From assembly GCA_040755995.1 (NCBI GenBank), contig JBFMAF010000033.1, positions 1 to 64,000 of the forward strand: a stretch of 64,000 nucleotides of DNA. The letters run 5' to 3'. The position numbers were made by a program, and so were the translations under genes. Numbering within the stretch: the first letter of the stretch is position 1; each line of letters starts with the position of its first letter. Under the pieces are notes generated by a model that was not told the origin of the DNA, ran no database searches, and saw only the letters and a list, made by a program, of their open reading frames with translations. This DNA comes from Acidobacteriota bacterium (GTDB taxonomy: Bacteria > Acidobacteriota > CAIWXX01). Below are positions 2,178-39,547 of this stretch, piece by piece.

Positions 2178-2447
2178 CTAGGCTCTTCCCGCTTCGTGCA
2201 TCTTCGACTGGATAGCTGCGGCGAGCGAGTTGATGTTCTCCCACGCGCTGCGGTCGAACTTCCCGCTGACCAGCTTGATGCCGTATTTCTTCTCTATCTC
2301 CACTATCAACTGGAGTATGTCGATAGAATCGACTTCCAGCGACCCGCCGATCAGCGGCTGGCTGTCGTCGAGCTCCTCCGGTCTCACGTCGGTCAAACGC
2401 AGGCTGCTGACGATGAGCTGCTTCAATTCCGGTCTTATGTCTTCCAT
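2178..2447 (-). CDS. acpP: Acyl carrier protein
   Basis: About 89 aa; LEVDSIDILQLIVEIEKKYGI phosphopantetheine motif. Confidence 0.85.
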   Translation of the reverse strand: MEDIRPELKQLIVSSLRLTDVRPEELDDSQPLIGGSLEVDSIDILQLIVEIEKKYGIKLVSGKFDRSAWENINSLAAAIQSKMHEAGRA

Positions 2448-3302: not shown

Positions 3303-4619
3303 CTACGAGCGATCTCTCAGGAAGTGCTTGTTGCCGCCCAGGATCTTCTCGGTGGTGAGGCGACGCTGCTTGAGGTTTACCGGGAGGTAGGCGAGAGCGG
3401 TCCAGAACGAGGAGAATGACGATCCGTAGAAGCGGCTCAGTATGCTCCGTTTGCTGTAGAACTCCCGCCAGACGTGCTGCCAGCCTTCGTGAAGCTTGTC
3501 CGGGCTCATGTGCTTCGGCCGGTAGAGCGGCGAGTCGTCGCGGTCCTTCCTCAGCCACCACCGGTCTTGCAGCAACCGCCCTTCATCCGCCAATCGCTTG
3601 TAGAGCCGTGTCCCGGGATAGGGCGTGAGCATGGCGAAGCTCGCCATGAACAGCGGCGCCTTCAGCGCGAAATCCAGCGTGCCGTCGAAAATGCTCTCGT
3701 CGTCCTCGTCCAGCCCCAGCACGAAAGACGCCCACACGGCTACGCCGTTATCCTGCAGCATCCGAACGCTGTCGACGTACTTCGCGGGGTTGTTCTGGTT
3801 CTTTCCACAACCTTTGAGGCTCGCAGGGCTTACGCTCTCGAATCCGATGAACAGCGCCTTGCAGCCTGATGCTGCAAGCTGCTTCACGGTAGCCTCTTTG
3901 CTCAGGCCGTGCAGCGACGCCTGTCCGAACCAGGTCACTCGCAGAGGCTTGAGAGCTTCGAAGAGCTTCAGCGAGTGGGCGGGAATGCCGACGATGTTGT
4001 CGTCCGCGAACATGAGCCAGTGGCCCTTCAGTCCGCGCACCTCGTCGATCGTGTCCTCCACGTCCCGCACCCGGAAGCTCCGCCCGAAGAACTGCGTGAC
4101 CGAACAGAAATCACAATCGAAAGGGCAGCCCCGCGATGCCTGAACGATGTCCATGGGTACGTACCGCTTGGACTTGAAAATATCGCGCCGCGGGCGCGTG
4201 GGGGTCTTGTAGTCCGGTAAGGAATCGCGCCGGTAGAGCCGGCTCAGTGTTCCGCTTCTTGCATCCTCCACGACTCGATCCCACAGCCCCTCGGCCTCGC
4301 CCACCACCACCGCGTCGCAGTGCTCCAAGACCTCCTCCGGCAGCACCGTCGGATGAATGCCTCCCATGACCACCCTTACGCCATGGGCGCGGTAAGCCGC
4401 CGCCAGCTCGTAGGCGCGCGCTACAGTCTTGGTCGAGGCGGTGATAGCAGCCAGGTCCACGCTGAAATCGAGGTCCGTCGACGGGTCGAGCCTCGTGACG
4501 AGATCGTCCTTGAAGCTCACATCCACATCTTTCGGCGTCAGCCCCGCCAGCGTGGCGACGGCAAGATGCTTCAAGAATGCCGAATCCTCGACCGCGGGCG
4601 CCACCAGCTCGATCTTCAC
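3303..4619 (-). CDS. B12-binding radical SAM protein (no. 1)
   Basis: MGGIHPT cobalamin-binding region, RGCPFDCDFC, GFES, LTPYPGT. Confidence 0.9.
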   Translation of the reverse strand: MKIELVAPAVEDSAFLKHLAVATLAGLTPKDVDVSFKDDLVTRLDPSTDLDFSVDLAAITASTKTVARAYELAAAYRAHGVRVVMGGIHPTVLPEEVLEHCDAVVVGEAEGLWDRVVEDARSGTLSRLYRRDSLPDYKTPTRPRRDIFKSKRYVPMDIVQASRGCPFDCDFCSVTQFFGRSFRVRDVEDTIDEVRGLKGHWLMFADDNIVGIPAHSLKLFEALKPLRVTWFGQASLHGLSKEATVKQLAASGCKALFIGFESVSPASLKGCGKNQNNPAKYVDSVRMLQDNGVAVWASFVLGLDEDDESIFDGTLDFALKAPLFMASFAMLTPYPGTRLYKRLADEGRLLQDRWWLRKDRDDSPLYRPKHMSPDKLHEGWQHVWREFYSKRSILSRFYGSSFSSFWTALAYLPVNLKQRRLTTEKILGGNKHFLRDRS

Positions 4620-4686: not shown

Positions 4687-5844
4687 TCATCTAACCAGTC
4701 CGAGCGCTGCTGTGAGGCGCAGGAATGCCCGCGCGGCCAGTCCCACCGGGTCCAGCAGCACGAAGCGGCCGATCAGGTTGTTCACGGGCTCCCCCTGGAA
4801 TCGGGCCACCCTCCGATAGTGGGCGATGAAGTTCAGCACTCGCAATGTGATCTTCCAGCGTGTGGATCCGAAGTAATGAGGTTTGATGAAAGGGATGGCG
4901 AGCCCCGCCTTCACCTCGTCGATGAACTCACCGAAATCACGCGCTCCGGCTGAAGCGCAGACGACGGTGGCAGCGGATAGCGAGTGACTGTCGCCGCCCC
5001 CGACCAGCGGCTTGCCCACTTCGCGTGCGAGCGCGATCACGGCATCATTCTCCTCGCGACTCCTCATCCCGTTGTACTCGAGCGCGTGGATCGCCCATCC
5101 ATACCGCTTGAGGAGATCGCTCGCAGGGATGCTGACCTTCTCGATGCCGCCCTTGGGCAGCAACGGGTGGTTGAGCACGACGAGGCATCCGGTCGCCGCG
5201 AGATGTTCGAAGAGCTCGTCGATCCGCCCGGCGCGGGCTTCACGCTGGAGGGAGGCGTGATCCGATTCGGCGCGTTCCGTCTCCAGGCCCACCACTCCGA
5301 GGTGAAAGAGGTGCTCCTGGAATCGAAACGAAAGCTCCTCGCCAAGGGCCAACCGCTGCCGGTCGTATTGCGTTAGCCGGAGTAGTTCAAGCGATCCGCC
5401 GATGTCGTCGTGATCGGTGATCGCGAGGAGCAGCCGGTCGATCCCGATATTTGGCGAGTCGGCTCGCTCGATCTCGAGTGCGTCCAGGGGGCTGAATGGG
5501 GGATTGTACTTGATATCCGCGTAGTCCAGGTGGTCGACCCAGGCGAGGCCGAATGCCCGCTGCAGAATGCCGCCGAACGGCCGCATGAAGCCGAGCCTGA
5601 TGAAGGCGTTGAGCGGCGCCAGGTCCTCGATCGAGTATCTGGTGTGGTTGTGGATCGAAATCAAGGTGGAAAAGCGGCCGGCTGGATTCGGGCACGGCCG
5701 GTACTCCCAGTTCTCCACCGTCCAGCACGTGGAAGGGGTCGTGCGCAGCTGCACCGGGGAGGCTCTGCGCGATGACTGGAACGACGACTCGATGCCGATC
5801 ACGACGTCCGCCGCGCTGTCGGCAGTCGCAGAGCGACGCATCAT
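4687..5844 (-). CDS. PHP-family metal-dependent phosphoesterase-like protein
   Basis: [26 protein letters not shown] motifs; ATG 5844 overlaps the fabG stop (ATGA). Confidence 0.7.
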
Positions 5845-6575
5845 ACGAGCCCCCCATCCACCGAGATCACCTGACCCGTGATGTAGCTCGCTGCGTTCGA
5901 TCCGAGGAAAACGACCAACGGCGCGACCTCTTCGGGCCGGCCGAACCGCCCCAAGGGTATCTCCGCGAGCAGCCGGCGTCCCTGCTTCTCGATGAGTCTC
6001 TCGGTCATCCTCGTCTCGATAACACCCGGGGATACCGCGTTGACCCTGATGTTGTAACGTCCCATTTCCCGCGCCAGCGACTTCGTGAAGGCGATGACGC
6101 CGCCCTTCGCGGCTCCGTAACTGCACTGGCCTGCCTGCCCGCGGATGCCGCTTGCCGACACGATGTTGGTGATCACACCTCCGCCGAGATGCATCATCCC
6201 CCTGAGAGCCGCTTGCGAGCAGAGATAGGTTCCTCGCAAACTGGCGTCGACGACCGAGTCCCACTGTTCATCCGACATCAGCATCAGCGGGCCGTCGTCG
6301 ATGATCCCGGCGTTGTTCACCAGGTGCGAGACGAGACCGATTCTTTCCTCGATCTCCGCAAATGCGCGCTCGACCTCGGCGCGCACGGCTACATCGACCT
6401 TCTTAGCAACAGCCCGCCCTGAAGCGCTCGTGATCCTCTCGACGACCTCATGGGCACCCGCCTCGTTCGACTTGTAGATCGGGATGACGAAGTGCCCCGC
6501 GCCCGCCAAAGCTTCCGCGATGGCCCGGCCGATACCGCTCGAAGCGCCTGTCACAACAGCGACCGGCTCATTCAC
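5841..6575 (-). CDS. fabG: 3-oxoacyl-ACP reductase
   Basis: [26 protein letters not shown] motifs; GTG start at 6575 preferred because the longer start runs through a repeat. Confidence 0.9.
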
Positions 6576-6589
6576 TGGTGGGATCCTGC

Positions 6590-6624
6590 CCGAAATCCGC
6601 AATTCGAAATTCGAAATCCGAAAT
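6590..6624. repeat. Five tandem heptamers (YCGMAAT)
   Basis: CCGAAAT CCGCAAT TCGAAAT TCGAAAT CCGAAAT. Confidence 0.8.
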
Positions 6625-6699
6625 AGGGCTCGCCTTGCCATTTGACGCTGCACGTCGCCCACCCGGCAACAAGTTGTCGCAAAGTTCGCCCTAACGCGC

Positions 6700-9600
6700 C
6701 TAGCTCAGCGGCTTGTAGATCAGCAGGTATGCGCCCCAGCGCGTCTCATAGCGGTCCAGGTTGCCCCTCAGGGCGTAGGTGACGATCCCCTGCACGTAGG
6801 TGCTCCACGGACCGGCCGTCGCGAAATCGACCTCGATCCCGTCGAAATCGCGGCTCCCGCGCCACTCTTCCGCGTTCTTCCCCCACGCGTGGCTGTACTT
6901 AGCTCCGCACCGGATGAAATCCATGATGTTGAATTCGTACGCCGCCCCGGCAGTCGCGATGCTGTCGAAGAACTCCGTGCCGCTCGGGATTCCGGCGAGA
7001 CGCGGTTGCGAGAAATACGAAGGGCTGTATTTCGAAAACCTGTCCAGCCGGTCCCCGCCATAGTACGAGAGCTCCAAGCCTGCTCTCGAGAACCGGCCGA
7101 AGTAAAAATTCTTCGACAAGATGCCGTAGTACTTGCTGTAACTTTGGTGGGTGGCGTCGGAGTCCTCGGGCTCGTATCCATATCCTCTCCATGCGAGGCG
7201 CCGCGAATACCAGCCGCCGGCTGTAGCGGAATACCCGTGCTGCGACCACTTGAGCTCGAGGCCCGGGCTGAGAGTGAGCCCGTTGCGCGGGAGCGAGTAG
7301 GCGGGATCGGTGTCGCTGGTGCGCCGATAGATGTCCCCGGTGAGATAGAAGGTGCCCGTGACGCTGAGCCTATCGGCTGCCTGCCAGGAGGCCCTCGCGC
7401 CCGCGGTCTCCGAGAACGCCCACATACCCTGCTCCTTGACCTCCGTGTCGCCCGAGTAGACGCGCGATTGTCCGGGAAGCGCCGAGAGCGCGACGTCCAG
7501 GCCCACTCGGTGGCCCGCTTCCCACTGCTTCGTGAGGTTCGCCGCAAGCAGGGGTCCTGCGAAGAAGATCGAAAGTTGCGAAGAGGTGTCCCTGAAATTG
7601 AAATCGACCAGGCTGAAGCCGAACAGGGGCACCGGGAATTCCAGGCTCCCCTCGTAAAGCACCCCCGCCACGATCGACTTGATGCGTCGCTCGATATCCG
7701 GCTGGAGCACCCGTTCGTCGCCCTTCTTTTTCAGCGTGCGCAGCCCTACATCGGTGTCCCGGAACATGGGATCGTCCGACCGTCGGGCGGAATCGAGCGA
7801 ACCCTGGAAATCGGCGGGGTTGATGGTGAAATCCGAGAGGCTGTAGGTCTTCTCGAGCAGGAAGCTGCGCCCCGCCGCATTGAGCATCTGCTGCGCGTAG
7901 ATCGACCGCAGCAGGTTTACCTGATTGCCGCTCCCATCCGACACCAGCGCGAACTCCTGCCTCTCCGCGTTCGAGATCACGTTACTCTTGCCGCCTCGCT
8001 GGCTCAGGTCCATCCTCACGTGGCGGAACGTGGCGCCGTCGATCCAGACCTTGCCGCGGTACAGCGTCTCACCCTTCACGACCGGCTCGAATCCGACCAC
8101 GTAGCACACAGCCCCGTCGACCGTGTCCATACCGAGCAGCGAGTAGGAGTACTTCTCGTCGAGCTTCAGCTCCAGTGGTTGCGTGAGGACCTTCTCGGGC
8201 TCGAGCTGTGGCAGCGGGAAGTCCCTGCGACCCTTGAAGCGCACCCCGTTCACGTAGAATTCGGTCTGAACCCATTCGCTCAGCCCCGACGCGCTCCAGA
8301 ACTGCCTGAACCGCATCGAGATGTCGAAAGTGCCTCCGACCCCGGCCGGCTCGAAGTGCAGCGTGAGAAAGCAGTTCGAGATGTATGCCTGGACCAGGCG
8401 TCGTTGAGCCTCCCGGTACTGCTGCCACCGCGCGACAATCTCATCCACCGTGAGCGAGGCTGGCGCGGTCACCTCGATCCTCTCGCGACCCGCCTCCTCC
8501 GGCGCCGCCAGCTTGCGGATCACGATGAGCAAGAACCGGCTGGAGCCCGTACAGATCTGCTCGATGCCCGAGGCTGCGCGAACAACCGCATCGGGCTTCA
8601 GAACATTCACAGCGACCGGATCGACCCACTCGACCCCGAAGTCCTCCGTCGCGGGCCCGCGGAGAGTCAGTCGACGCGCGGTGCCGGCGGTCTCGCCGAG
8701 CTGTGCCAGAATCGCGACGTCCGGGGTCGTCGAATCGTTAAAGACTGCGTAATGGAGCGGTCCGCCGTCCGAGGATACCGAGAACGGGGATGACGCAGCG
8801 TCGACCACGCTGAAGCTCAAACCGACCTTCTGCGCGAGCAGCTGCGCAGTAGCGCAGACGCGGCTCATCGCCGGCTGGTCGGGGAGGTCGATCAGAAGCG
8901 TGTCGACGGCGACACCGCTCAGCGCGAGAACGGCCTCCATGAATCTGTCAACGAAAGACTCCGGCCCCGTCGCAGCGGTGCAGTCGACACGCAGGCAGAC
9001 GGGCTTGCCGAGCGCCTCCTGCGCCGCAAACGCGACCACATCCCGCCATCCGGCGTCGAGGTCCGTGGCGATGACGTCGCTGTAGACGGCCAGCTTCCTC
9101 GCGACCTCTTCCTGCTGTGCGATGAATCCCGGCGGAAGGTAGAATATGATCTGCAGGCCGGGTTTGTCGGCCCGCGCCTTGGTGGCTATGCTGGCTGTCA
9201 CGAATCGAAGCAGATCGGGCTGCGGCAGCGGGTCGCCGAATTCCAGGACAAGGCCTCGGACGCGCGAGTCGGCAAGCGGGATGCGATCGAGAGCCTGCGT
9301 GATCGCCGCGCCAAGCTGTTTCTCGTCGGAAGTAGCTGCAGCCGCCTCAATGCGCAAGCGAACGAAGACCTCGGTCGTTCCAGGCAGGCCCTCGATTGCC
9401 TTGGCTGTCTGCTCGCAATCGGGACAGGGATCGGCTGCAGTGCTCAGATCCAATCTGAGCGCCGGTAGGACCAAGAAGCTATTCGCACTGCTGCACTCCC
9501 GGGCCGCGCGCGCGACTGCGCTCGTATCAGTGGCGAACCCGCCAAGAAGCAATCTTGGAATCCCCGTCGCACAGGCGGCAGCGGTCGCGTTCAGGGCGAC

Positions 9601-9738
9601 CAGAGTTGCGACGAACAGCGGCACCAAAATCGCGAGATTCGTTCTCCGTGTCGCCGCGTCCCCGAGTCTCCGCGTCCATCTCGAAACGCGCGTGGCGCGC
9701 TCCGAAACCGCTGGACCCTTCACTGAGAGCAGCAACAC
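6700..9738 (-). CDS. Large exported multidomain protein: N-terminal TIM-barrel-like region, LolA/RseB-like middle domain, C-terminal outer-membrane beta-barrel-like region
   Basis: Hydrophobic N-terminal segment; [23 protein letters not shown]...YRGKVWID typical of LolA/RseB-like folds; alternating aromatic beta-strands ending YLLIYKPLS; start uncertain (GTG 9738 or 9723). Confidence 0.6.
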
Positions 9739-9743: not shown

Positions 9744-11318
9744 TTACGAAGGGCTCCGCGGGGACTGCGAGACCGCGGCGGCGCGGCGATTCTCCTCGAC
9801 CGTCCGGTACCGCTCGCCGGCATTGTAGCTGCAGAAGGGTACGATCTTGCCGTCGGTGGTCACGTACTTGATGATGCAACGGTTGAGGCGCCTCAGGTTG
9901 TAGTTGTACGGATCCATGAAGTGCATGCCCGCTACGAACAGTCCGTTGAACCCTCGCTGATCCCAATCGGGAGCGCGGCCCACGGACTTGTCCTCCCATC
10001 CGTCCAGGCCGTGCAGAAGCCTCTCGAATGTGAGGCCTGCAGGCGCGCCGCGCCGATCGAAGCATGACGAGAGCTGTCGCGTCTGTAGCAGGCGTGAGAC
10101 CCGCCCCCCTAGAAATCCACGCCCGGTTGGAGCCAGCTTGCCGACCGCGTCGAAGAACTTCTCCATGTCAAGGAACTGGTTCACGCATGTCGCGGTGTTC
10201 TCCCTGTCGACGAAGAAGTAGGTGCCGACGGAGCAGTGGGCGTCGCATTCGGCATGGAGCAGCGGTTCGCCGCGAAGAGACGAGAGACCCCGTGTGATCA
10301 GAGATACTGCGTTCAGCGGGAACCAGTCCTCCGGCGTCCGCGTGAGGCCGGTCTGTTTCCCGAACTCGATCGCCATGTCCGCGAGATTGAACGAGGGGGA
10401 TCCGTCTTCCTTCGGCTCAGGGATGCGGCCGATGCGCGCCGCCGGCTGCATGCTGATGCCCGTCACATGCCTGCTGTGCTCGATGGCGAACCGGAAGATC
10501 GGCCCGATCTGGTCGACGTTTATCGACGAAACCACCGTCGGAACCAGCACTATTCGCATGTTGGTCCGGCAGACATTCTCCACCGTACGCAGCTTCTTAT
10601 CGAGCAGGCGTCTCCCTCTAAGCTTCAGGTAAACCTCGTCGTTCATCCCGTCGAACTGCAGGTACAGCGTCTGGAGTCCCTCAGATTCGCAGAGGCTAAC
10701 GTAGCCTCCGTCGCCGAACAGGAGTCCGTTCGTGGCGACCTGAATGTGGTCGAAGCCCATCTGCCGGGCCATCGCTATGATGCGGGGGAATTTCGGGTGA
10801 ATCGTCGGCTCGCCGCCCGAGAACTGTATATGAGTGCAGCCCACGGGAGAACGCCTCTGGATCACAAGCAGCATCTCGCGTATGGTCTCTTCATCGAGGA
10901 AGTAGGCGTCTGGCGAGCCGTCCGTTTCGGCGAAGCAGACGGGGCACTTCAGATTGCAGCGATCGGTGATGTCGATAACCGCGAGCAACGGCGCATCGTC
11001 CTGATGCTCGATTCCGGACTCGCTGCCGTCCGGCCCGAACACCTTCGCGTTCCACGCATCGAGTTTGCGGTAGAGGCGCGAGTCGGAGAAGATGAGCGTC
11101 TCGACGGGCCTGCACCGCGGGCAGTCCATGCGCTGGTAGACCTTGCCTTCCCGCTCCAGGATCCGCGCCAGCAGCCTCGCGCCGCACGCCGGGCAGAGCG
11201 ACTCGGCCTCATCCAGTTGGATGGAGTTTCGATCGTCCCCAGCTCGGCTCTGCCCATGCGCCGATGCGCAGCCGGACGGCGTCAATGATCCGCCGGCCCT
11301 ATCTAGCTGCGTATCCAC
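9744..11318 (-). CDS. Radical SAM protein, tetraether lipid synthase (Tes/GDGT-MAS, MJ0619)-like family
   Basis: N-terminal SLCPAC...GKVY..MDCPRC, DITDRCNLKCPVCFA, QFSGGEPT, ATNG, YLQFDG, CDAHC, GMHFMDPYNY..RL.RCII.Y...DG.IVPFCSYN; start uncertain. Confidence 0.8.
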   Translation of the reverse strand: MDTQLDRAGGSLTPSGCASAHGQSRAGDDRNSIQLDEAESLCPACGARLLARILEREGKVYQRMDCPRCRPVETLIFSDSRLYRKLDAWNAKVFGPDGSESGIEHQDDAPLLAVIDITDRCNLKCPVCFAETDGSPDAYFLDEETIREMLLVIQRRSPVGCTHIQFSGGEPTIHPKFPRIIAMARQMGFDHIQVATNGLLFGDGGYVSLCESEGLQTLYLQFDGMNDEVYLKLRGRRLLDKKLRTVENVCRTNMRIVLVPTVVSSINVDQIGPIFRFAIEHSRHVTGISMQPAARIGRIPEPKEDGSPSFNLADMAIEFGKQTGLTRTPEDWFPLNAVSLITRGLSSLRGEPLLHAECDAHCSVGTYFFVDRENTATCVNQFLDMEKFFDAVGKLAPTGRGFLGGRVSRLLQTRQLSSCFDRRGAPAGLTFERLLHGLDGWEDKSVGRAPDWDQRGFNGLFVAGMHFMDPYNYNLRRLNRCIIKYVTTDGKIVPFCSYNAGERYRTVEENRRAAAVSQSPRSPS

Positions 11319-11452: not shown

Positions 11453-12028
11453 CTACTGCGCTTCGAGTACTTTCCGGACGCCGTCGTCGCCCAGGATTGT
11501 GGAGATGATCCCGTTCATCTGCCGATAGGCCCGCTGCTCGAGTTGGGCCGTCTCGGCGGGTGACGGCTCATCGAACTTGACGTCGAAGGTCTTGGCGAAC
11601 ACTACGGCGGCCTTCTTCCATATGGTCACGGTGCCTACGAAGTTGCGGTCGGACCATGACGTGAAGACCAGCCGGAGTTCGGGAATATCGCCCGACGGAG
11701 ATGAGTCTCTATACACCCTCCTGAGATCCAACTTCCATAGCGCCTTCTCCCAGCAGTACCATAGATACGATTGGATAGTCGGCGAGGCCTCATAGGTCGT
11801 ATTCTTGTCAGGAGAGTAGTAGTACCAAATGCGGGTGTCTTCCGCCTCGTTCTCGAAATCAGCCAGAAACACCTCTTTGTTCTTGTATCCCTCCAGGTTC
11901 CCGCTGAGATGCGGACTGTAGGAATCCTTGTCAAGCATGACGTGAGGCTTCTTGGCGGCCTGAAGTGGAGCAACAGCCCACGTCAGGAGTAGAATGAGGC
12001 AGCATGGAAGCAGCATCCGGCGCGACAT
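11453..12028 (-). CDS. Secreted hypothetical protein
   Basis: GGAGGAGA RBS; signal peptide ending LQA. Confidence 0.7.
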   Translation of the reverse strand: MSRRMLLPCCLILLLTWAVAPLQAAKKPHVMLDKDSYSPHLSGNLEGYKNKEVFLADFENEAEDTRIWYYYSPDKNTTYEASPTIQSYLWYCWEKALWKLDLRRVYRDSSPSGDIPELRLVFTSWSDRNFVGTVTIWKKAAVVFAKTFDVKFDEPSPAETAQLEQRAYRQMNGIISTILGDDGVRKVLEAQ

Positions 12029-12155
12029 TGTGTCTCCTCCTCTTCTCGATGCCCGGGTATTCATGGTATCAAGCGCGACTCCAGCGCGTCAATCGGACGC
12101 TCACCGGTGCTGGCAGGGTTTGGACTCAAGAACGACGGACGCTTGGGAGGCAACC

Positions 12156-12389
12156 ATGGAATTCGATATCCAGGTGAAACTGGCGGTCTACCGGCACTTC
12201 GCAGAGACGGGGCAGAGGCCGTCGGCGGGCGAAGTGGCACGGCGCATAGGCGCAGACGTCGATCGTGTGCTCGACGCCTATCGTAGGCTTCGCGCTCAGA
12301 GGTTGATCGTCCTCGAAGCCGATGGGTCGTCAATCCGCATGGCCCCTCCGTTCTCAGGTGTAGCGACCCATCTCCTCAGGGATGTCTGA
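12156..12389 (+). pseudogene. Truncated alkylmercury lyase (MerB)-family protein, N-terminal winged-helix part only
   Basis: GGAGG RBS; F..TGQRPS..E.A....V..A...L...RL.VL......IRMAPPFSGVAT then a stop after 77 aa; catalytic region missing. Confidence 0.6.
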
Positions 12390-13102
12390 GAGGACGTAAG
12401 CTCCTGCGTCGTTCCCCCAATGACGATGGTGCCATCGCCTAAGCGTATCGAGTCATAAGCAAGATTGGCGATGCTCTTGCTGAAAGCGTAGGACTTGCTC
12501 CACCGGACCGCACCCGCCGGACCCAAAGACGCCAGGGTGAAGGCGTTGCTGCGGCACGAGCCAGACGTGATGAGGGCGATGCTGGTACCATCCTCCGCGG
12601 CAAGTATGGACGTAACGAACTGAAGCCCCTGGATCGAGGTGTCACGGAATCTGCGCTGCCAGCTGACGCCAAGTTGAGAATCCAGCTTGCAGAGCCAACC
12701 ATAGCAAACAGTCCCATGCACACCGAATGACCATGTGAGGCCCGCGAGCAGCCATCCACTGTCCACCGTCGGGGCAACATCCACGAACATGTCGTCAAAC
12801 GGGCCGCCGATCCCCCGTTGCCAGGTGATGTCACCGGACTCGTCAAGGCACATGATCCATCCATCCACGTCACCCGAGGAGCGGCCCGAGGGTGCCGAAC
12901 CGACCCCGAGCCAACCGCCAGTGGGTAGCGGAACCAGCTTCCCCACGCCCACATTCTCGGCAGTGACTTGCTTCACCCAGTTTGACTTGGCGTGCTCGCC
13001 GTGCGCCGTCCCCCCGGACTCGGCTCTCAGGCCGAAAGGAGGCGCCACCAATAGAAGGGCCATGAATCCTGATACTAGTGAGAATCGGCCACTCGACAGC
13101 AT
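12296..13102 (-). pseudogene. Secreted beta-propeller repeat protein, apparently C-terminally truncated
   Basis: GGAGG RBS, signal peptide, WQRGIGG/WQRRF/WSKSY repeats like 214..1869; the frame runs into the antisense of the merB fragment after ...RRWVAT. Confidence 0.55.
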
Positions 13103-13161
13103 CTCACTCACCTCCTCCTGTTTGAATGATTTGTCGATACCTCCACAAAGCGCATTGTGCG

Positions 13162-14784
13162 TCAGCGCGTGGAAGCGTCGCTGGCTGAGCAGCGGCTGCC
13201 GAGGTCGCCGAAGCCGAGCTTCCTCCTCAGCACCGATCGCCTGGTCTCTGCATAAGGATCATCGGCTGTGCCGAAAATCGGGTGATAGGAATACGATCGA
13301 TCCCTGCGCTGGGCCGGCAGGCCGAAATCGTTCAGCGCCAGGTAATGGCGCATCTGCAGCTTGTATCTGCCCTCGAGACCGAGGAGTCGCTCCAGCATCC
13401 GCTCATTGAGCCAGATCAGGTGACGCATCCCGAACTCCCAGAGGTAGGTGTACCCCTTGAAGAACTTCCAGTCGCCAGGCGTGGGCCGCCACATGCCGAT
13501 GATCTCGCGCCGCACCTTCCATCTCACGAAGTTCAGCTCCTCGGCCGAAAGGTGCCGGGTCCGCACGTTGCTGAAGTATCCGTCATACCAGCGGAAGTCG
13601 CTCATGTTGCGCACGAGGCCGTCCCGGAGCATCTCCTCGCGCAGAGGTGTCTTGGGGTAGGGCGTGAGGAGCTGGTCCATGACGCCCGTGATCCCGAGCC
13701 CCTTGATGAACCGGAAGTTCTCTCTGATGCTGTCGGCATCGTCTTCCGGCAGCCCGTTGATGATGCCGGCGATGACTATTATGCGTTCCTTCTGCAGAGC
13801 CTCCACACCCTTGCGTATGAGGTCCACGGTGTTTGGTTTTCTCAGCGTCCGCAGGTTCTGCGTCGTGTGGTTCTCGATTCCGAGGAAGATGGAGGTAAAC
13901 CCCGCCTGGGCCATCTTCTTCGCAACGCCGGGGCTTCGCGCGAACCCGATGGGGCTCGCCTGTGTCGTGAACATCAGGCCGCGAAGCTTCAGGCCTATGA
14001 CGCCGTCGCAGAGCTGCTCGAACCTGTCCATGTCGAGCGTGATGTTGTCGTCGGTACAAAAGATGTGGCGCGCGCCGCGACTGTATGCGTCCTCGATATC
14101 AGCCAGCACTCGATCGATCGGGAAGACCCTGAACGAGCGCCCGTACATCTCTCGAATGCTGCAGAAATTGCAGTCATACGTACATCCGCGGCTGGTCTCG
14201 ATGACGTCCGCGCGCCGGAAGTACATGTGAAAGCCCCTGGCCACGCGCTTTGATCGCGCAGGGATCCGTATCGTCGCAAGGTCCTCCAGCGGTCGCGGGC
14301 CGTTGTGGATGAACCTCCCGTTGTCTTTGTATGAGAGCCCAAGGATTCCCGAGAGCCCTGAGCCGCTCACTTCGAGACAGTCCAGCAGCTCACCGAAGCT
14401 GAAGTCACCCTCGCCTCTGAAGATGAAGTCCCAGAAATCGCCGTCCGGTCCATCAGCAAGCTGGTCGGCGAACAGCGTCGCGTGGTAGCCGCCCAGCGCG
14501 GTCAGGATCGATGGGTATCGCTCCTTGACCATCTGCGCCAGAGCTGCGGTTGTGTCGTACTGGAAAGTCATCGACGTGAACCCGACGACGTGCGGCTGGA
14601 ACTCGGCGAGCAGGCGCATCAGGCGCCCGACCGCCTGCTTCCGCCATATCGTCATGTCCGCCACCCTCACGTCGTGGCGGTCGATCTGACCGGCGATAGT
14701 CGCCATCGCGATTGAGGGAGGCTCCCACTGGCGACGCGGCACCCATGCGGATGTGGCTGGACTCTGGAGCAACAGTGCGCGCAT
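13162..14784 (-). CDS. B12-binding radical SAM protein (no. 2)
   Basis: LGGYHAT, RGEGD, RGCTYDCNFC, GIEN, LTPYPKT. Confidence 0.9.
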   Translation of the reverse strand: MRALLLQSPATSAWVPRRQWEPPSIAMATIAGQIDRHDVRVADMTIWRKQAVGRLMRLLAEFQPHVVGFTSMTFQYDTTAALAQMVKERYPSILTALGGYHATLFADQLADGPDGDFWDFIFRGEGDFSFGELLDCLEVSGSGLSGILGLSYKDNGRFIHNGPRPLEDLATIRIPARSKRVARGFHMYFRRADVIETSRGCTYDCNFCSIREMYGRSFRVFPIDRVLADIEDAYSRGARHIFCTDDNITLDMDRFEQLCDGVIGLKLRGLMFTTQASPIGFARSPGVAKKMAQAGFTSIFLGIENHTTQNLRTLRKPNTVDLIRKGVEALQKERIIVIAGIINGLPEDDADSIRENFRFIKGLGITGVMDQLLTPYPKTPLREEMLRDGLVRNMSDFRWYDGYFSNVRTRHLSAEELNFVRWKVRREIIGMWRPTPGDWKFFKGYTYLWEFGMRHLIWLNERMLERLLGLEGRYKLQMRHYLALNDFGLPAQRRDRSYSYHPIFGTADDPYAETRRSVLRRKLGFGDLGSRCSASDASTR

Positions 14785-14793: not shown

Positions 14794-15054
14794 TCACGAC
14801 TGAGTGAGCTTCGTTTGAACGGCCGAGCAGATCCCCTCGACGGTCTCGAGGCGGTTCAGCTTGATCTCGCGCGGCATGAACTCGACGGCAAAGCTCGACT
14901 CTATGAAGTTGATGAGCTTCAGCGTGCCTATCGAATCGATGATCCCCGAAGTCATGAGCGGCGTGTCGTCGGCCAGAGCGTCCGGATCCTCGCCCTGCAG
15001 GTGATGGTCCAGAATGTACTGCCTGATGGCGGCCTTCAACTCCACTTCGGCCAT
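14794..15054 (-). CDS. Acyl carrier protein (second, divergent)
   Basis: 86 aa; GIIDSIGTLKLINFIESSF motif; AAGGAG RBS. Confidence 0.85.
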   Translation of the reverse strand: MAEVELKAAIRQYILDHHLQGEDPDALADDTPLMTSGIIDSIGTLKLINFIESSFAVEFMPREIKLNRLETVEGICSAVQTKLTQS

Positions 15055-15250: not shown

Positions 15251-16255
15251 TCATGTGCGCGCCAAAGTTGCGCCCCATGTGAACCCGATCCCCGCCGACG
15301 CGAATAGTAGCGTCTGGCCCTCGCGAATCCTCTTCTGCTCCATCAGATCCGTGTAGTTGATGAGGAGGTCGCTGGCGAACGTATGGCCGAGTCGATCCAG
15401 GTTCGCGCGATAGACCTTCTCAGGCTGTATGCCCAGCGCGCGAACAAACCCGTCCTGGTCCGGCGCGCTGATGTTCGAGTAGATGAAGTGATCGACCGCG
15501 TCGAGCCCAATGGAGTGCCTCTCCAGAAGGCCGTGCACCAGGCGATAGAAGTGCAGGTAGTAGATCGGCATGACCTCGTTCTCGACCCGGGCCGAGTCGA
15601 CCAGGATCGTTCTACGCATGCGGCCCTCCACGGGCTCCTCCACGAACGATATGACATCGTGCAGATCGGCTACGGTGGCGAGCGCAGTTCCAAGAACTCG
15701 AGCTCCGACCCCACCCTCCATGCGAAGCACCGCGGCGCTTCCAGCGTCTCCTTGTATGGTGACCGGCAGAAGCGTCCGGCTGCCTCGGGGCGGGCTGTCC
15801 GCCGCCACGATGAGAGCGTTGCGGATACCCTGGTCCGCCTGCATCAGCGATTGCGCAGTCTTCACCGCCAGGTGAAAACCCGCGCATCCCCCGATCTTGT
15901 AGCCCAGCACTACGGCCGTATCGAGGCCGATATCGGCGGCAATCTTGTGCGCAAAGGAAACGTAACGGCCCCCCTCGCCCGGGAGCGTGCTGAAGTCAAC
16001 GACCAGGTCGATCTCAGATGACCTAATGCCGGCCCGTTCGATCGCCGACGTGGCGGCCTCCAAGGCCAGCGGATACGGCGAGTCCTCTTCGCACACGCGC
16101 ACGCTGGTGATGCCCAGATGCTCGCATACCCGCCGGCGAAGCGCTCCACTGAGCGGCCGCAGCGCCTCTTCAACCCTGGGGGCTTCCTCCTGCATCACCT
16201 CCGCGGCCTGAACCACTCGCCGCGGCAGAGCGTAGGATGAAGCGGCGATCCTCAT
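15251..16255 (-). CDS. FabH/KAS III-like condensing enzyme with atypical active site
   Basis: GGCAGF catalytic Cys, QGDAGSA, LGHTFASD, SAGIGFTWG; canonical HQAN replaced by SNIS. Confidence 0.8.
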   Translation of the reverse strand: MRIAASSYALPRRVVQAAEVMQEEAPRVEEALRPLSGALRRRVCEHLGITSVRVCEEDSPYPLALEAATSAIERAGIRSSEIDLVVDFSTLPGEGGRYVSFAHKIAADIGLDTAVVLGYKIGGCAGFHLAVKTAQSLMQADQGIRNALIVAADSPPRGSRTLLPVTIQGDAGSAAVLRMEGGVGARVLGTALATVADLHDVISFVEEPVEGRMRRTILVDSARVENEVMPIYYLHFYRLVHGLLERHSIGLDAVDHFIYSNISAPDQDGFVRALGIQPEKVYRANLDRLGHTFASDLLINYTDLMEQKRIREGQTLLFASAGIGFTWGATLART

Positions 16256-17442
16256 CTGAAGGCAACCGCTGCGCAGCCGCCGCCCGCCGATGTGCCAAGC
16301 AGAAGCGTCATGCCGGGATCGCCGCCGGCTTGAGCGTCCCTCGACGCGGCGGCTCCTTCAGCGTCGCCATACGCCTCGCCGAGTCCGGCCAGCGCCGCCG
16401 CAAGCCCGAGCAGTCCGCCTGCATCGAGCTCGCCGATGCACGACTTCGGACAGAGCACCCGCGCGCCAGGGGCGATCGAGCGCAGCTCGCTTATCGCCTC
16501 CCGTTCCACCAGGTCATGCGCAGGCAGCCCGTTCATCGAGGAGACTATGAGGCGCAACGTCGCACCCGGAACGCCGCCGAGAGCCTGTTCCGCGAGCGCC
16601 GCCAGCACTCGTCCCGACTTCGCGGTTCCCGCGGCCGTCGCGTGCGGATCGCCGCCGATCCGGCCTCCGAGAAACCGTGCATACACCTTCTGCGCGCGCC
16701 GCGCAGCATGCGCTGCTTCGGATTCCAGCACAAGCGCGGCGATGCCTTCACCGGGCACCAGCCCATCGGGCTCCCCGCACATGCGGAACGCGCCCGGCGC
16801 TTCGCACTTGCACGCCGGCGAGAGCATCCTACCCGCCTCGTACCATTCGTAGAGGGTCCGAGTGAGCGTATCGCCGGCCACAACCAGGACGCGTTCAGCG
16901 TCTCCAGACCGGACCAGTGAAGCTGCGTGAATGATCGCCGCCTCCCCGGAGATGCCCCGCATCGTCACCGCAAGATTCGGCCCGGTGAGGCCGAACTGTC
17001 GCGCGATGTGCCCGGCCGGCGAGTTCGGCAGGGTTTCGGGGAAGATGATCGGATCGGATTTGGCGTATCCGTACTGGCCGATGTTCACCAGGTAGGCTTC
17101 TGAGAGCTCGAGGCATCCGTAGCCTGTCCCAAGCACGACGCCGAACATGGACCGGTCGAGCCGTCCGAGGTCGATGCCGGCATCTTGCAGGGCGAGAGAT
17201 GCGGCGACGAGCGACCACGTAGACAGCCGATCGAGCCTCCGCGTCTTGAGTCCTGGCACGACCTCGGCGGGGCGAAAAGGTTCGATGAGAAACGCCCTGC
17301 GAGCTCCGGTGGTCGGCCAGGAAGTGATCCTGGCCGGAGCCTTCCCTACTCCGGACGGCAATCCCTTCGATGGCCCGAACACGCTGATGGTCGCGAGTCC
17401 AGAAATGTAGGCGGGAACGCCCGGGTCCATTTGGTGTGTCAT
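16252..17442 (-). CDS. Beta-ketoacyl synthase chain-length-factor-like subunit
   Basis: KS N-terminal fold (RRLDR, GVVLGTGYG, FPETLPNSPAG, GPN); no Cys at the catalytic position (MRGISG) and no HGTGT. Confidence 0.75.
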   Translation of the reverse strand: MTHQMDPGVPAYISGLATISVFGPSKGLPSGVGKAPARITSWPTTGARRAFLIEPFRPAEVVPGLKTRRLDRLSTWSLVAASLALQDAGIDLGRLDRSMFGVVLGTGYGCLELSEAYLVNIGQYGYAKSDPIIFPETLPNSPAGHIARQFGLTGPNLAVTMRGISGEAAIIHAASLVRSGDAERVLVVAGDTLTRTLYEWYEAGRMLSPACKCEAPGAFRMCGEPDGLVPGEGIAALVLESEAAHAARRAQKVYARFLGGRIGGDPHATAAGTAKSGRVLAALAEQALGGVPGATLRLIVSSMNGLPAHDLVEREAISELRSIAPGARVLCPKSCIGELDAGGLLGLAAALAGLGEAYGDAEGAAASRDAQAGGDPGMTLLLGTSAGGGCAAVAFR

Positions 17443-17457
17443 GTGGTACGACCCCGG

Positions 17458-17497
17458 CGGGCTCTCCGCGCCTCCCACTCACCGCGTCCCCGCGTCC
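17458..17497. repeat. Five degenerate tandem octamers
   Basis: CGGGCTCT CCGCGCCT CCCACTCA CCGCGTCC CCGCGTCC, similar to 4636..4683. Confidence 0.6.
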
Positions 17498-17527: not shown

Positions 17528-18724
17528 TCACGCCAGGCTGAAGATGAGGCAGGCGTTGCTTCCGCCGAATCCTGCGGAGACGGTCATTCCGACTGAAGGT
17601 CGCGTGCGCCGTGGTTGTCTCTTTATCCAGTCCACGTTGTTGCTGTCGAGTGGGTTCTTCAGTCGAAGCGTCGGAAACAGCAGTCCGCTTCGCAGGCTGG
17701 CTATGGTTGCCACGGCCTCGATCGCTCCCGCAGCCGCCAGGTTGTGCCCGACGTACGACTTGGTCGAAGACACGGGTATCGCCTCGCGCCGATCCCTGAA
17801 GACACGCTCGTAGGCTTTGGCCTCGGCAGCGTCGTTCAACGGAGTTCCGGTTCCGTGGGCATTGACGAAATCGACGTCGTTCGGGCCGATGCCGGCCTTC
17901 CGCATCGCGCGCTCCATGCACAGCGCCAGGCCCGCTCCACCTTCGTGCGGCGCCGTTGGATGATAGGCGTCGTTGCTCATCCCCCATCCTCTGAGCACCG
18001 CGATGACACCGGCGCCCCGCTCGCGAGCGGCAGGCAACGGTTCCATCGCCAGGATGGCCGCGCCCTCGCCGATGTTCAGCCCCTTGCGTTCGCAATCGAA
18101 CGGTATGCAGGGGTCGGGGTCGAGCGCCTGGAGCGCATTGAACCCGCTGAGCGTGAACCGGCACAGTGCGTCGCTCCCGCCGGCGAGCACGAGCGATGTC
18201 GAGCCGTCGAGCAGCATCTGCGCGCCGGTAGAGATCGCGATCGCCCCCGAGGCGCAGGCGACGCTCAGCGCGCACCGGGGCCCGGCAGTGCCGAGATCTG
18301 CGGCCACAGCGTCGGTCACGTGTCCGGGCTGGTAGGAAGTGAGCAAAGAGAAGTCGCCGCCCCTGTAGCATCCTCGCGGATCGGAAGCGACCGCAGGGCG
18401 CACGGCCGTCAGGCCGCCAACTGTCGTGGCAAGGACGACGCCGCATTGCGTCATGTCCCTGATAGAGCCAGCCGCGTCCCGCGCGGAGAGAATCGCCAGC
18501 TGGTCAGTGCGCGAGTATCGGAAACCCTTGCGATTCTGGACATGGAGCGCCCCCGTGATCTGGCAGACGGTCGGGGCCGGTTGGATGTCGATGTCGAAAA
18601 GGCTCAGAGGGGACAGGCAGCTGCGGCACTCCTCGAGACTCCTTTGGACCGCGTCGAGGTTGCACCCGAGGGGACTCTTGATTCCGATGCCGGTGACGGC
18701 GACGGCATCGCGTGCGGTGCTCAT
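17528..18724 (-). CDS. fabF: Beta-ketoacyl-ACP synthase (FabF-like, KS-alpha)
   Basis: VACASG, DAYH, NAHGTGT, KSYVGH, AGFGG; ATGA overlap with the upstream gene. Confidence 0.9.
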   Translation of the reverse strand: MSTARDAVAVTGIGIKSPLGCNLDAVQRSLEECRSCLSPLSLFDIDIQPAPTVCQITGALHVQNRKGFRYSRTDQLAILSARDAAGSIRDMTQCGVVLATTVGGLTAVRPAVASDPRGCYRGGDFSLLTSYQPGHVTDAVAADLGTAGPRCALSVACASGAIAISTGAQMLLDGSTSLVLAGGSDALCRFTLSGFNALQALDPDPCIPFDCERKGLNIGEGAAILAMEPLPAARERGAGVIAVLRGWGMSNDAYHPTAPHEGGAGLALCMERAMRKAGIGPNDVDFVNAHGTGTPLNDAAEAKAYERVFRDRREAIPVSSTKSYVGHNLAAAGAIEAVATIASLRSGLLFPTLRLKNPLDSNNVDWIKRQPRRTRPSVGMTVSAGFGGSNACLIFSLA

Positions 18725-19743
18725 GTGCCGCGAGTGCCCTTCCCGCCGGCGCCCTCGGCGGGCCAGATGTCGAAGAAGTTGAACCACTGCTCATGGTGCT
18801 GGTGGCAGCATTTTTCCAAAAAGGCCACTGCGCGGACGAGCCCGTGGCGCAAGTCTGCGTCACGGTCGCCGGTGTGCGGCAGGCGTATCGGATCCCCCAT
18901 GGCTACGCGGTATCGCAGCCAGCCCTTCCGCACGACGACGCACGGCAGCACAGGCGCGCCGGAGAAGTAGGCCAGGAAGAACGGCCCCAGCGGGAACGAA
19001 GCCGGCTCGCCCAAGAACGGTACCCAAGCACACGACGAATTATATGTACGGTCTCCCTGCATCGCAACGATGTCATTGGCTCGAAGCGCGTATAGAAGCC
19101 GCACGGATGCGAGCGGATCATCGTTGAGCGCCACGATCTCGAGACGCTCGTTTGCCATGAGATCCCTGAGCGTGATCTCGGCAGGGTTGTCTGTTTCCAC
19201 GACTCGCGCCTCGTACACCCGCCGTCCGTGCAGTTCCAGCAGGCGAGAGCCGTACTCGTAGTTGCCGATGTGCGCCGTCCAGACTATAAGCCCGTTTCCT
19301 TCGGCAAGGCAGCCGTCGATCGTGCCGGCGCCGCGTTCGGGGTCGGCCAGCATGGACAAAAGGCTGGAATCATCCGCTCGCGGTACATAGCAATACGACA
19401 CCATGAAATCACAGTATGAATAGAATATCTTGAATGCCTTGTACCGCAGCCACAGCCGGCCGTGTGGGCCGAGCCGCATAAGGTTTCTCATCAGCGCCGC
19501 CCGCTCCCTCCTCAGAACCACGAAGAAGATCATCGCGGTCACGGCGGCGATCGGGGGATGTATGAAGCGGGGCAGCCTGGGGATCGTCGAAAAGACCAGG
19601 CGCAGGAAGAAAGGTGTGTGGTATCCGTGATCGTACCATCTGACCTGCCCCGGCGAATCGGCCTGCGCCTGCGAAGTCGTGTTCACGAGCACTGGTGGAA
19701 AGCGAGCGGAGGGCGTGCCCGGGGCTCCGCGCGGCCCGCTCAT
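18721..19743 (-). CDS. LpxL/lysophospholipid-family acyltransferase
   Basis: TAHIGNYE, QGDR, PFLGEPASFP.GP, QWFNFFDIW. Confidence 0.85.
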   Translation of the reverse strand: MSGPRGAPGTPSARFPPVLVNTTSQAQADSPGQVRWYDHGYHTPFFLRLVFSTIPRLPRFIHPPIAAVTAMIFFVVLRRERAALMRNLMRLGPHGRLWLRYKAFKIFYSYCDFMVSYCYVPRADDSSLLSMLADPERGAGTIDGCLAEGNGLIVWTAHIGNYEYGSRLLELHGRRVYEARVVETDNPAEITLRDLMANERLEIVALNDDPLASVRLLYALRANDIVAMQGDRTYNSSCAWVPFLGEPASFPLGPFFLAYFSGAPVLPCVVVRKGWLRYRVAMGDPIRLPHTGDRDADLRHGLVRAVAFLEKCCHQHHEQWFNFFDIWPAEGAGGKGTRGT

Positions 19744-22435: not shown

Positions 22436-22439
22436 GGGC

Positions 22440-22865
22440 TCAGGTGACGACAAGCGAAAGCTCCCCCTTGGCCACCACCTCGCCGGAAACCCGTATGACG
22501 GCGTCGATGCATGCCATCGGGCTCGATGCCGCCGTCAGGCGGACTTCGATAGTGAGCTCGGACCCCGGCGCGACCGGCTTGAGGAACTTGAACCGGTTCA
22601 CCGCCACCAGAAGGTGGTCGCCGGCGGCGGCGCCCTCGGCTCGGCCGGCCGCCTGAAGCACGGCGGCCGTCTGAGCCGCTGCCTCGATGAGGAAAACTCC
22701 TGGCAGCACGGACCTGCCCGGGAAATGTCCCGCGAAGAACTGCTCATCCGGGTCGATGTACTTCAAGGCAACGCACCTCTTCCCCGGCTCAACCTCGACC
22801 ACGCGGTCGATCCACAGAAACGGCGGTCGATGTGGTATCAGAGAAAGGATTTCGTTCTTGTCCAA
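22440..22865 (-). CDS. fabZ: 3-hydroxyacyl-ACP dehydratase
   Basis: IPHRPPFLWIDRV, FFAGHFPG..VLPGV.LIEAAAQ, F.KPV.PG. Confidence 0.9.
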   Translation of the reverse strand: MDKNEILSLIPHRPPFLWIDRVVEVEPGKRCVALKYIDPDEQFFAGHFPGRSVLPGVFLIEAAAQTAAVLQAAGRAEGAAAGDHLLVAVNRFKFLKPVAPGSELTIEVRLTAASSPMACIDAVIRVSGEVVAKGELSLVVT

Positions 22866-39542: not shown

Positions 39543-39547
39543 CCTAC

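What the first reader, a model, noticed from the sequence alone, without database searches (positions are those of the whole stretch)
9744..11318. Tetraether-synthase-like radical SAM inside an ACP-based lipid locus
Seen: N-terminal CxxC...CxxC rubredoxin-like motif (CPRC, where I recall CPxH as the usual form), CxxxCxxC, YLQFDG, CxxHC, MHFMD and PFCxYN. Known: archaeal Tes/GDGT-MAS joins two lipid tails by C(sp3)-C(sp3) coupling, and bacterial homologues are candidates for membrane-spanning lipid and branched GDGT synthesis. Inference: the enzyme could couple tails of, or macrocyclise, the chains made by the neighbouring FAS II genes, giving rare genomic context for a bacterial homologue.
Basis: partly seen in the sequence, partly recalled or inferred. 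Interest (0 to 1): 0.82.

Follow-up and report, generated by a model that had tools for sequence, protein, structure and literature searches.

The report
Tes-like enzyme in proline-primed lipid cluster
This intact gene encodes a bacterial relative of the archaeal enzyme that welds two lipid tails together; it belongs to a rare branch that has lost one iron-sulfur cluster and sits in a recurring gene cluster for an unknown, probably proline-primed, exported glycolipid, so it more likely tailors that lipid than makes the branched tetraethers used as climate proxies.

Summary
The ORF (9744-11318, minus, 524 aa) and all listed motifs are real. It has the Tes/GDGT-MAS fold (Z 38.9 to 7TOM) and keeps the rubredoxin site, radical SAM motif and C-terminal cluster ligands (C362, C481, C496, M465). 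The genome has a separate canonical Tes. The branch is rare, mostly Acidobacteriota, and under purifying selection. 15 of 15 other loci carry orthologues of the window's cluster, against 2 of 91 canonical-Tes control rows, so the linkage is no artefact of the 12.37 kb junction. The cluster resembles aryl-polyene-lipid clusters: KS/CLF, two carriers, FabZ, FabG, GT2, deacetylase, acyltransferase, LolA, MMPL and three conserved B12 radical SAMs. It also has a PltF/PltL-like proline-loading module. Best reading (0.55): radical C-C cross-linking or ring closure on this cluster's lipid; a brGDGT synthase is unlikely (0.1). No substrate is shown. This scan found the same branch before on other DNA (e1-4245939, e1-5283288); a word search of its notes for the proline starter returned nothing.

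The parts
9744..11318 (-). Tes/GDGT-MAS-fold radical SAM enzyme, 524 aa, of a branch lacking the N-terminal [4Fe-4S] cluster (the finding)
11112..11195 (-). Rubredoxin-like site C42, C45, C66, C69 (fourth ligand is His in 118 of 119 homologues)
   Evidence: (PF23545)
10989..11048 (-). Shortened Cys-free loop (about residues 91-110) in place of the CPxxCGxCxxH ligands of [4Fe-4S]N
10935..10958 (-). Radical SAM motif C121-x3-C125-x2-C128
9831..10235 (-). C-terminal cluster region: C362, M465 (= MJ Met439), C481, Y485 (= MJ Tyr459), C496, each invariant in 119 of 119 homologues
   Evidence: naming the three Cys as the ligands is my inference from alignment and invariance
6700..9660 (-). About 986-aa probable outer-membrane/envelope protein (weak LolA_like; start uncertain); directly downstream of the Tes-like gene in 14 of 14 loci with downstream sequence (3 partial)
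5841..6662 (-). FabG-type ketoreductase
4687..5844 (-). PHP-like metallohydrolase (weak family match), conserved in the cluster
2184..2447 (-). Second carrier protein (ACP2, DSI motif), missed at first; orthologues in 5 other cluster loci
3303..4619 (-). B12-binding radical SAM, not part of the conserved set (no close orthologue in the other cluster loci examined)
13162..14784 (-). B12-binding radical SAM, 71-73% identical across cluster loci, usually beside the PltL-like carrier
14794..15054 (-). Carrier protein ACP1/PCP; best PDB match PltL (weak, E 1.8e-4)
15251..16255 (-). FabH-like enzyme with catalytic Cys but altered His/Asn positions (probable transacylase)
16252..17478 (-). KS-like protein without the catalytic Cys motif (chain-length-factor-like)
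17528..18787 (-). FabF-type ketosynthase with Cys-His-His motifs
18721..19743 (-). LpxL-family acyltransferase
19740..21731 (-). B12-binding radical SAM (true start probably near 21220), 62-67% identical across loci
21218..22453 (-). DUF2062 + SAM methyltransferase fusion
22440..22865 (-). FabZ-type dehydratase
22866..23552 (-). LolA-like carrier
23599..24309 (-). GT2 glycosyltransferase
24311..25066 (-). Polysaccharide deacetylase family protein
25128..26786 (-). B12-binding radical SAM (closest model HpnR, 212 bits, far below its cut-off of 650), 58-63% identical across loci
11453..13111 (.). Interruption inside the cluster: unknown 203-aa ORF, MerB-like stub (12156-12389 +) and cut beta-propeller-like gene (12296-13111 -); junction near 12369

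Best explanation
The protein is a dedicated tailoring enzyme of a conserved aryl-polyene-lipid-type cluster. Shown: fold, motif set, branch, gene content and linkage. Inferred pathway: a stand-alone adenylation enzyme loads proline on the PltL-like carrier; the FabH-like enzyme hands it to ACP2; KS/CLF, FabG and FabZ extend it (no enoyl reductase was seen in the cluster, so probably a polyene); B12 radical SAMs methylate or otherwise modify it; GT2, deacetylase and the LpxL-type acyltransferase place it on a glycolipid exported by MMPL, LolA and the 986-aa protein. Inferred step for this enzyme: the 5'-deoxyadenosyl radical removes H from an acyl tail held in the Tes-type hydrophobic channel, and the retained C-terminal [4Fe-4S] cluster stores or oxidises the radical so that a new C-C bond forms. 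The bond is either tail-to-tail as in Tes (two SAM; about 0.3) or by addition to the polyene or heterocycle, closing a ring (one SAM; about 0.25). The lost surface cluster is probably an electron relay replaced by another donor or by internal electron recycling (speculative).
For: Fold: Foldseek 7TOM E 1.8e-42, TM 0.78; Z 38.9, rmsd 2.7 A over 460 residues, next unrelated entry Z 20.2. All residues tied to catalysis in PMC9433317 are kept: RS motif, Met439, Tyr459, three invariant C-terminal Cys; of 11 SAM-product-binding residues named in Extended Data Fig. 4, 9 are identical by the alignment (Ser271, a backbone contact, is Ala; Thr273 is Ile). The chemistry of Tes happens at the C-terminal cluster, while the N cluster is on the surface and of unknown role. 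Linkage: 15 of 15 branch loci carry cluster orthologues (13, 2), against 2 of 91 canonical-Tes rows of at least 8 kb. dN/dS 0.10-0.19 in 5 pairs of homologues and 0.18-0.28 in 3 pairs with the window gene. The adenylation enzyme passes TIGR01733; the pocket region's best PDB match is the proline ligase 6O6E at 138 bits, then 76 for another proline ligase and 70 for DltA; the pocket motifs are conserved in 6 of 6 copies. APE clusters use the same KS/CLF, two ACPs, acyltransferase/GT, RND and LolA parts to make glycolipids.
Against: No substrate or product is known; the lipid pockets were not measured. 28 positions conserved in canonical Tes are not conserved in the branch, including two His near C-terminal ligands (now D359 and Q/K484), and the stem branch is long (1.27-1.4), so the chemistry may have changed. 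In this genome the adenylation enzyme and MMPL are on another contig (C30:29504-33632) at lower identity (40-45%), so their assignment to this cluster is inferred. No conserved prolyl-carrier dehydrogenase was found (an ACAD-like gene in 4 related loci and another in 1), so a pyrrole head is not established. Several loci are close kin (L003, L133, L135, L245), so 15 overstates independence. At least 51 control rows are archaeal by title.
Confidence: 0.55

Rival explanations
1. It is a cluster enzyme that does another radical reaction: anaerobic desaturation/oxidation (of the acyl tail, or standing in for the missing prolyl-carrier dehydrogenase) or C-S bond formation using the C-terminal cluster as sulfur source.
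For: Tes forms a substrate-sulfur adduct with this cluster, so release of a C-S product is a small step; changed residues near the cluster and a new invariant C378 (118 of 119); no conserved dehydrogenase in the cluster; long stem branch.
Against: The fold with two lipid channels and all named catalytic residues is kept; a small carrier-bound proline fits such a channel poorly (inference); three B12 radical SAMs offer other candidates for these steps.
Confidence: 0.22
2. It is the bacterial brGDGT or iso-diabolic acid synthase acting on bulk membrane lipids, with the neighbouring B12 radical SAMs adding methyls and rings.
For: Bacterial Tes homologues were proposed for this role (PMC8941075); hosts are mainly Acidobacteriota; Acidobacteria lack Mss (PMC13159169); several B12 radical SAMs are adjacent.
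Against: The branch is rare: no other member among 400 phylum genomes and 3 of 401 in the class sample including its centre, whereas the known producers carry 40% and 32% homologues of other types. G000, G401 and G929 also hold a canonical Tes above cut-off. The cluster has an amino-acid starter module and export genes; no ether-forming enzyme was recognised in it. Against this argument: G1056, G403 and G404 show no canonical Tes, but they are incomplete assemblies.
Confidence: 0.1
3. The branch is functional, but this genome's copy or cluster is decaying (split cluster, broken genes at the junction, unique His-to-Cys change).
For: Adenylation enzyme and MMPL are on another contig; two truncated genes lie 0.8 kb upstream; the N loop is among the shortest.
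Against: ORF intact, all invariant residues kept, dN/dS 0.18-0.28, GC3 0.81 like its neighbours; all conserved cluster genes are present somewhere in the genome; the broken genes are not cluster members; a Cys at the fourth rubredoxin position also occurs in two canonical homologues (L160, L171).
Confidence: 0.08
4. The neighbourhood is an assembly artefact created by the 12.36 kb junction.
Against: The gene's downstream neighbours (986-aa protein, FabG, PHP, ACP2) are on its own side of the junction, and genes from both sides flank it in L001, L133, L134, L135, L245, L270 and L271.
Confidence: 0.02

Closest known systems
GDGT-MAS / Tes (M. jannaschii MJ0619; PDB 7TOL, 7TOM; NCBIfam NF045702)
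   Same: Whole fold (Z 38.9), rubredoxin spacing, RS motif, Met439, Tyr459, three C-terminal Cys, 9 of 11 SAM-product contacts; about 30% identity.
   Different: No [4Fe-4S]N ligands; below the family cut-off (342 vs 450); two conserved His changed; bacterial; sits in a type II PKS/FAS cluster; substrate cannot be archaeol.
Canonical bacterial Tes homologues (40-42% type of Ca. Solibacter and Ca. Koribacter in PMC8941075; the paralogue at G000 C31:37565-39202)
   Same: The branch nests among them in both trees; 39-42% identity.
   Different: They keep CPxxCGxCxxH (166 of 170 proteins outside the two motif-less families), pass the cut-off where tested (3 of 3 bacterial-type proteins) and rarely lie near these genes.
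About 680-aa Tes-like family widespread in Acidobacteriota
   Same: Also lacks the N-cluster cysteines while keeping rubredoxin and C-terminal ligands (16 of 16).
   Different: Separate branch, MWFQD instead of MHFMD, about 30% identity, common rather than rare; so the loss happened at least twice.
Aryl polyene lipid (ape) clusters of Xenorhabdus and E. coli
   Same: KS plus CLF, two ACPs, KR, DH, adenylating starter enzyme, GT/acyltransferase, RND/MMPL, LolA, methyltransferase.
   Different: Starter enzyme is a proline-type adenylation domain, not a 4-hydroxybenzoate ligase; three conserved B12 radical SAMs and a Tes-like enzyme are added; one active KS; deacetylase, PHP and a 986-aa envelope protein present.
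Prolyl-carrier modules PltF/PltL (pyoluteorin) and PigI/PigG (prodigiosin)
   Same: Best PDB matches for the adenylation enzyme and (weakly) for ACP1.
   Different: No conserved flavin dehydrogenase of the PltE/PigA kind (gene names and role recalled) was found in the cluster.
Anammox FAS-II/radical SAM clusters (kuste3603-3608, kuste3335-3352)
   Same: FAS-II genes with KS/CLF-like pair, B12 radical SAMs, deacetylase-like gene and a ligase.
   Different: No Tes-like gene is mentioned in the passages read; no sequence comparison with anammox genes was run.
Mss (bacterial membrane-spanning lipid synthase)
   Same: Radical SAM tail-to-tail coupling of acyl chains.
   Different: Described as only remotely related to Tes; no Mss sequence was compared here.

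Membership tests
Tes/GDGT-MAS (NF045702) | Score at or above the curated cut-off of 450 bits | tested here: not met
   342 bits; other branch members 314-368
Tes/GDGT-MAS (NF045702) | Radical SAM CxxxCxxC core and SAM-binding residues | tested here: met
   C121/C125/C128 invariant; 9 of 11 named contacts identical
Tes/GDGT-MAS (NF045702) | Rubredoxin site CX2CX20CX2H | tested here: met
   Same spacing; fourth ligand Cys here, His in 118 of 119 homologues
Tes/GDGT-MAS (NF045702) | N-terminal [4Fe-4S] ligands (C73, C77, C80, His) | tested here: not met
   Absent in the protein and in 119 of 119 homologues
Tes/GDGT-MAS (NF045702) | C-terminal [4Fe-4S] ligands (3 Cys + Met439) and Tyr459 | tested here: met
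   C362, C481, C496, M465, Y485 in 119 of 119; Cys assignment inferred
Tes/GDGT-MAS (NF045702) | Overall four-domain fold | tested here: met
   TM 0.78; Z 38.9, rmsd 2.7 A, 460 aligned
Tes/GDGT-MAS (NF045702) | Two hydrophobic lipid channels of the same shape | not testable with these tools
Tes/GDGT-MAS (NF045702) | Catalyses C(sp3)-C(sp3) coupling of lipid tails | not testable with these tools
   Needs an assay
TrsS (NF045646) | Score at or above 490 bits | tested here: not met
   262 bits
Aryl polyene (ape) cluster | KS, CLF, ACP, DH, KR and RND transporter core | tested here: met
   In the window except MMPL, which is on C30; together in other loci
Aryl polyene (ape) cluster | 4-hydroxybenzoate-loading starter enzyme (ApeH type) | tested here: not met
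   The ligase is an amino-acid adenylation domain closest to proline ligases
Mss | Sequence homology to characterised Mss | not tested
   No Mss sequence was among the fetched proteins

The most novel reading that the evidence does not exclude
A Tes-derived, three-cofactor radical SAM enzyme has been recruited into a polyketide-like pathway to close a carbocycle in, or cross-link, a proline- or pyrrole-headed polyene glycolipid without oxygen. That would be a new class of outer-membrane lipid in Acidobacteriota and the first bacterial Tes-family enzyme with a genetically defined substrate pathway, showing that the N-terminal cluster is dispensable for C-C coupling.
Probability: 0.3. Interest if true: 0.85.

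Novelty: new variant of a known kind. Interest (0 to 1): 0.6.

Why it matters
The function of bacterial Tes homologues and the role of Tes's N-terminal cluster are both stated as open in PMC9433317. This branch is a natural deletion of that cluster and comes with a compact, conserved pathway that should supply its substrate, so both questions become testable by expressing one cluster. It also warns that a BLAST-level 'Tes homologue' in an Acidobacteriota genome is not evidence of brGDGT production: at least three distinct types exist. The limits are that the hosts seen here are metagenome-assembled, the branch is rare, no product is known, and this scan has already flagged the branch twice.

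Tried and rejected
Reads over the junction: no run was listed, so it could not be checked. A bootstrap tree did not finish; both trees are quick SH-aLRT trees, and the sister position next to L137/L162/L174 (96 and 82) is unsure because of the long stem. Own-genome MerB family search rang nowhere, controls included, so it says nothing; the stub was identified through a homologue. I first labelled the 986-aa protein an MMPL; Pfam and the Atlas do not support that, and the label 'w6700_MMPL' is wrong. A frameshifted start was considered because no in-frame ATG or good RBS precedes the gene; it was rejected because the nearest sub-branch has the same 35-48 residue leader. Promoter scan: 2 sites against 1.1 expected, uninformative. 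The N-motif 'loss' rows are circular for the canonical sets (they were filtered on the motif); the unfiltered count is. Literature: searches listed no paper describing this branch or cluster; the library lacks most subscription papers, and I did not read the supplements (bacterial Tes tree in PMC8941075, similarity network in PMC9433317), which may include members. The OlsH/OlsI lead from the weak ACP match was seen only as a search listing and not followed. A search of the scan's notes for proline/pyrrole wording gave nothing.

Full report
Observation. The ORF at 9744-11318 on the minus strand encodes 524 aa without internal stops. It hits Radical_SAM and the HMPTM zinc ribbon in Pfam, the Tes model NF045702 at 342 bits against a cut-off of 450, and TrsS at 262 against 490. 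The best solved relative is GDGT-MAS 7TOL (269 bits). The AlphaFold model (pLDDT 82.5, pTM 0.86) matches 7TOM with TM 0.78 and Z 38.9, rmsd 2.7 A over 460 residues.

Cofactor sites. PMC9433317 (parts 1-4 of 9 and the first part of the Extended Data legends read) describes a rubredoxin iron (C9, C12, C33, H36), an N-terminal cluster (C73, C77, C80, His), the RS cluster, and a C-terminal cluster with labile Met439 that captures the first substrate radical; the roles of the two surface cofactors are stated as unknown. In the window protein the rubredoxin spacing is kept with Cys as fourth ligand, a change found only here (His in 118 of 119 homologues). C362, C481, C496, M465 and Y485 are invariant in 119 of 119; M465 and Y485 align with Met439 and Tyr459, and naming the three Cys as ligands is my inference. 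The N-cluster ligands are gone: the loop is Cys-free and 11-12 residues shorter, and 0 of 119 homologues have the motif, although 60 of 119 keep one to four scattered Cys in the loop. Among 170 proteins extracted from loci outside the two motif-less families, 166 have it; the four others are one masked, one truncated, one with the first Cys changed and one true loss. Other changes include conserved His to D359 and to Q/K484, and a new near-invariant C378.

Family position. The 119 best homologues are 54-64% identical, and the top hit of a profile search of 50% representatives is one of them, P0107, at 866 bits with the next at 518. In a tree of 113 selected proteins the branch is one clade (SH-aLRT 100) on a stem of 1.27, nested among canonical bacterial homologues, not archaeal ones; a 34-row tree agrees. 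A second family of about 680 aa, common in the phylum, also lacks the N cysteines but keeps the other ligands (16 of 16) and branches separately, so the loss alone does not prove changed chemistry. The host belongs to the same phylum as a Bryobacteraceae genome, since the two phylum samples returned the same contig coordinates: Acidobacteriota. The branch is rare: no other member in 400 phylum genomes (best 42%), 3 of 401 in the class sample including its centre. One member is labelled Chloroflexota. The genome has a canonical paralogue on C31 with the motif intact (563 bits); so do G401 and G929, but not G1056, G403 or G404. dN/dS is 0.10-0.28 in 8 of 8 pairs.

Context. The window cluster runs from 2184 to 26786. 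All 15 other branch loci obtained (5, 7, 1, 2) carry orthologues of these genes. The 986-aa protein follows directly in 14 of 14 loci with downstream sequence (three partial); L005 ends inside the gene. With the same queries and thresholds (35% identity over 30% of the length), 2 of 91 canonical rows (90 loci of at least 8 kb; at least 51 rows archaeal by title) had any hit. One of the two, L174, has an intact N motif, passes the cut-off (475), lies beside an LpxL-like acyltransferase, deacetylase, GT2 and a B12 radical SAM, and falls near the branch in both trees: a possible intermediate, weakly placed. Several loci are close kin, so these counts are not independent. The junction near 12369 joins a MerB-like stub to a cut beta-propeller-like gene; genes from both sides flank the enzyme in seven other loci, so the linkage does not depend on it. 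Two conserved genes, the adenylation enzyme and MMPL, are on C30 in this genome.

What the cluster makes. It has an active KS and a partner without the catalytic Cys, as in the anammox KS/CLF pair (10.64898/2026.05.19.726425, passages) and in ape clusters (PMC8253772, passages). With two carriers, FabG, FabZ, GT2, acyltransferase, LolA and MMPL it matches the layout that makes aryl polyene glycolipids (10.1101/2020.12.19.423268, whole text without supplements). No enoyl reductase appeared among the annotated ORFs, which suggests a polyene (inference). The ligase, next to ACP1 and the FabH-like gene in other loci, passes the amino-acid adenylation model, and its pocket region is closest to the proline ligase 6O6E, with conserved pocket motifs in 6 of 6 copies; ACP1 weakly matches PltL. 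A proline starter is therefore likely but not shown; no conserved dehydrogenase supports oxidation to pyrrole. Three B12 radical SAMs are conserved at 58-73%. Related clusters without this branch exist (G166 and G237 stretches).

Mechanism and rivals. Most likely (0.55) the enzyme makes a C-C bond on the cluster's lipid through the retained C-terminal cluster, either tail-to-tail or by ring closure onto the unsaturated chain. A different radical outcome, desaturation or C-S formation, is the main rival (0.22). A bulk brGDGT synthase (0.1) fits poorly: PMC8941075 (passages) ties the known producers to 40% and 32% homologues, PMC13159169 (passages) found Tes homologues in only 3 of 14 iso-diabolic-acid-producing Acidobacteria, and this branch is rarer still. 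10.1101/2022.04.07.487437 (passages), PMC13459092 (passages and section 2.1) and PMC2649909 (passages) gave background. Local decay (0.08) and artefact (0.02) are unlikely.

Novelty. It works like Tes but is not a member by two defining tests. Five searches listed no paper on this branch or cluster, within a library that lacks most subscription papers; supplements were not read. The scan's own notes describe the same branch in other genomes (e1-4245939, e1-5283288), which I had already reached independently and which are not independent support. Verdict: new variant of a known kind, interest 0.6.

Noticed in passing
G000 C30:29504-33632 (L240:11504-15632): Two-gene module of a proline-type adenylation enzyme and an MMPL transporter, the genome's best matches to the two conserved cluster genes missing from the window.
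   Followed up: partly
G000 C31:37565-39202 (L242:9565-11202): Canonical bacterial Tes homologue with all four cofactor motifs (563 bits, above cut-off), with no cluster genes nearby; the better brGDGT candidate in this genome.
   Followed up: partly
window 12156-12389 (+) and 12296-13111 (-): 5' stub of a MerB-like gene (homologue 146 aa, PF03243) joined head-on to a truncated beta-propeller-like gene; deletion or local misassembly.
   Followed up: partly
L174:6240-15441: Canonical Tes homologue (N motif intact) beside an LpxL-like acyltransferase, deacetylase, B12 radical SAM (47% to window 25128), methyltransferase and GT2: possible ancestral-type cluster.
   Followed up: partly
L112-L125, L128, L166, L168: Widespread Acidobacteriota Tes-like family of about 680 aa lacking the N-cluster cysteines, with MWFQD in place of MHFMD; an independent loss.
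   Followed up: partly
G237 C40:13600-34565 (L275): A related APE-like cluster lies about 3.6 kb from a gene of the long Tes-like family; may be chance.
   Followed up: no
window 35745-44962 (-): PqqD-radical SAM-SPASM gene (43517-44962) with a kinase/NTPase-like gene, a C25 protease, an S24-like peptidase and an S8 protease: possible peptide-modification cassette.
   Followed up: no
window 6700-9660 (-): About 986-aa unnamed envelope protein; relatives of its C-terminal 600 residues occur in 101 of 401 phylum genomes, with distant likeness to Omp85/TamA-type clusters at a lead-only score.
   Followed up: partly
window 214-1953 (-): Secreted beta-propeller-like protein with CARDB domain; many paralogues across the genome.
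   Followed up: no
window 57221-59190 (-): AAA_21 ATPase followed by a DUF4276 gene, a pair resembling a toxin-antitoxin or defence module.
   Followed up: no
window 11337-11300 (-): A strong Shine-Dalgarno-like site precedes an out-of-frame ATG for a 12-codon ORF overlapping the GTG start of the Tes-like gene.
   Followed up: no
G403 (L003 and L245): One genome carries two copies of the branch, each in cluster context.
   Followed up: no
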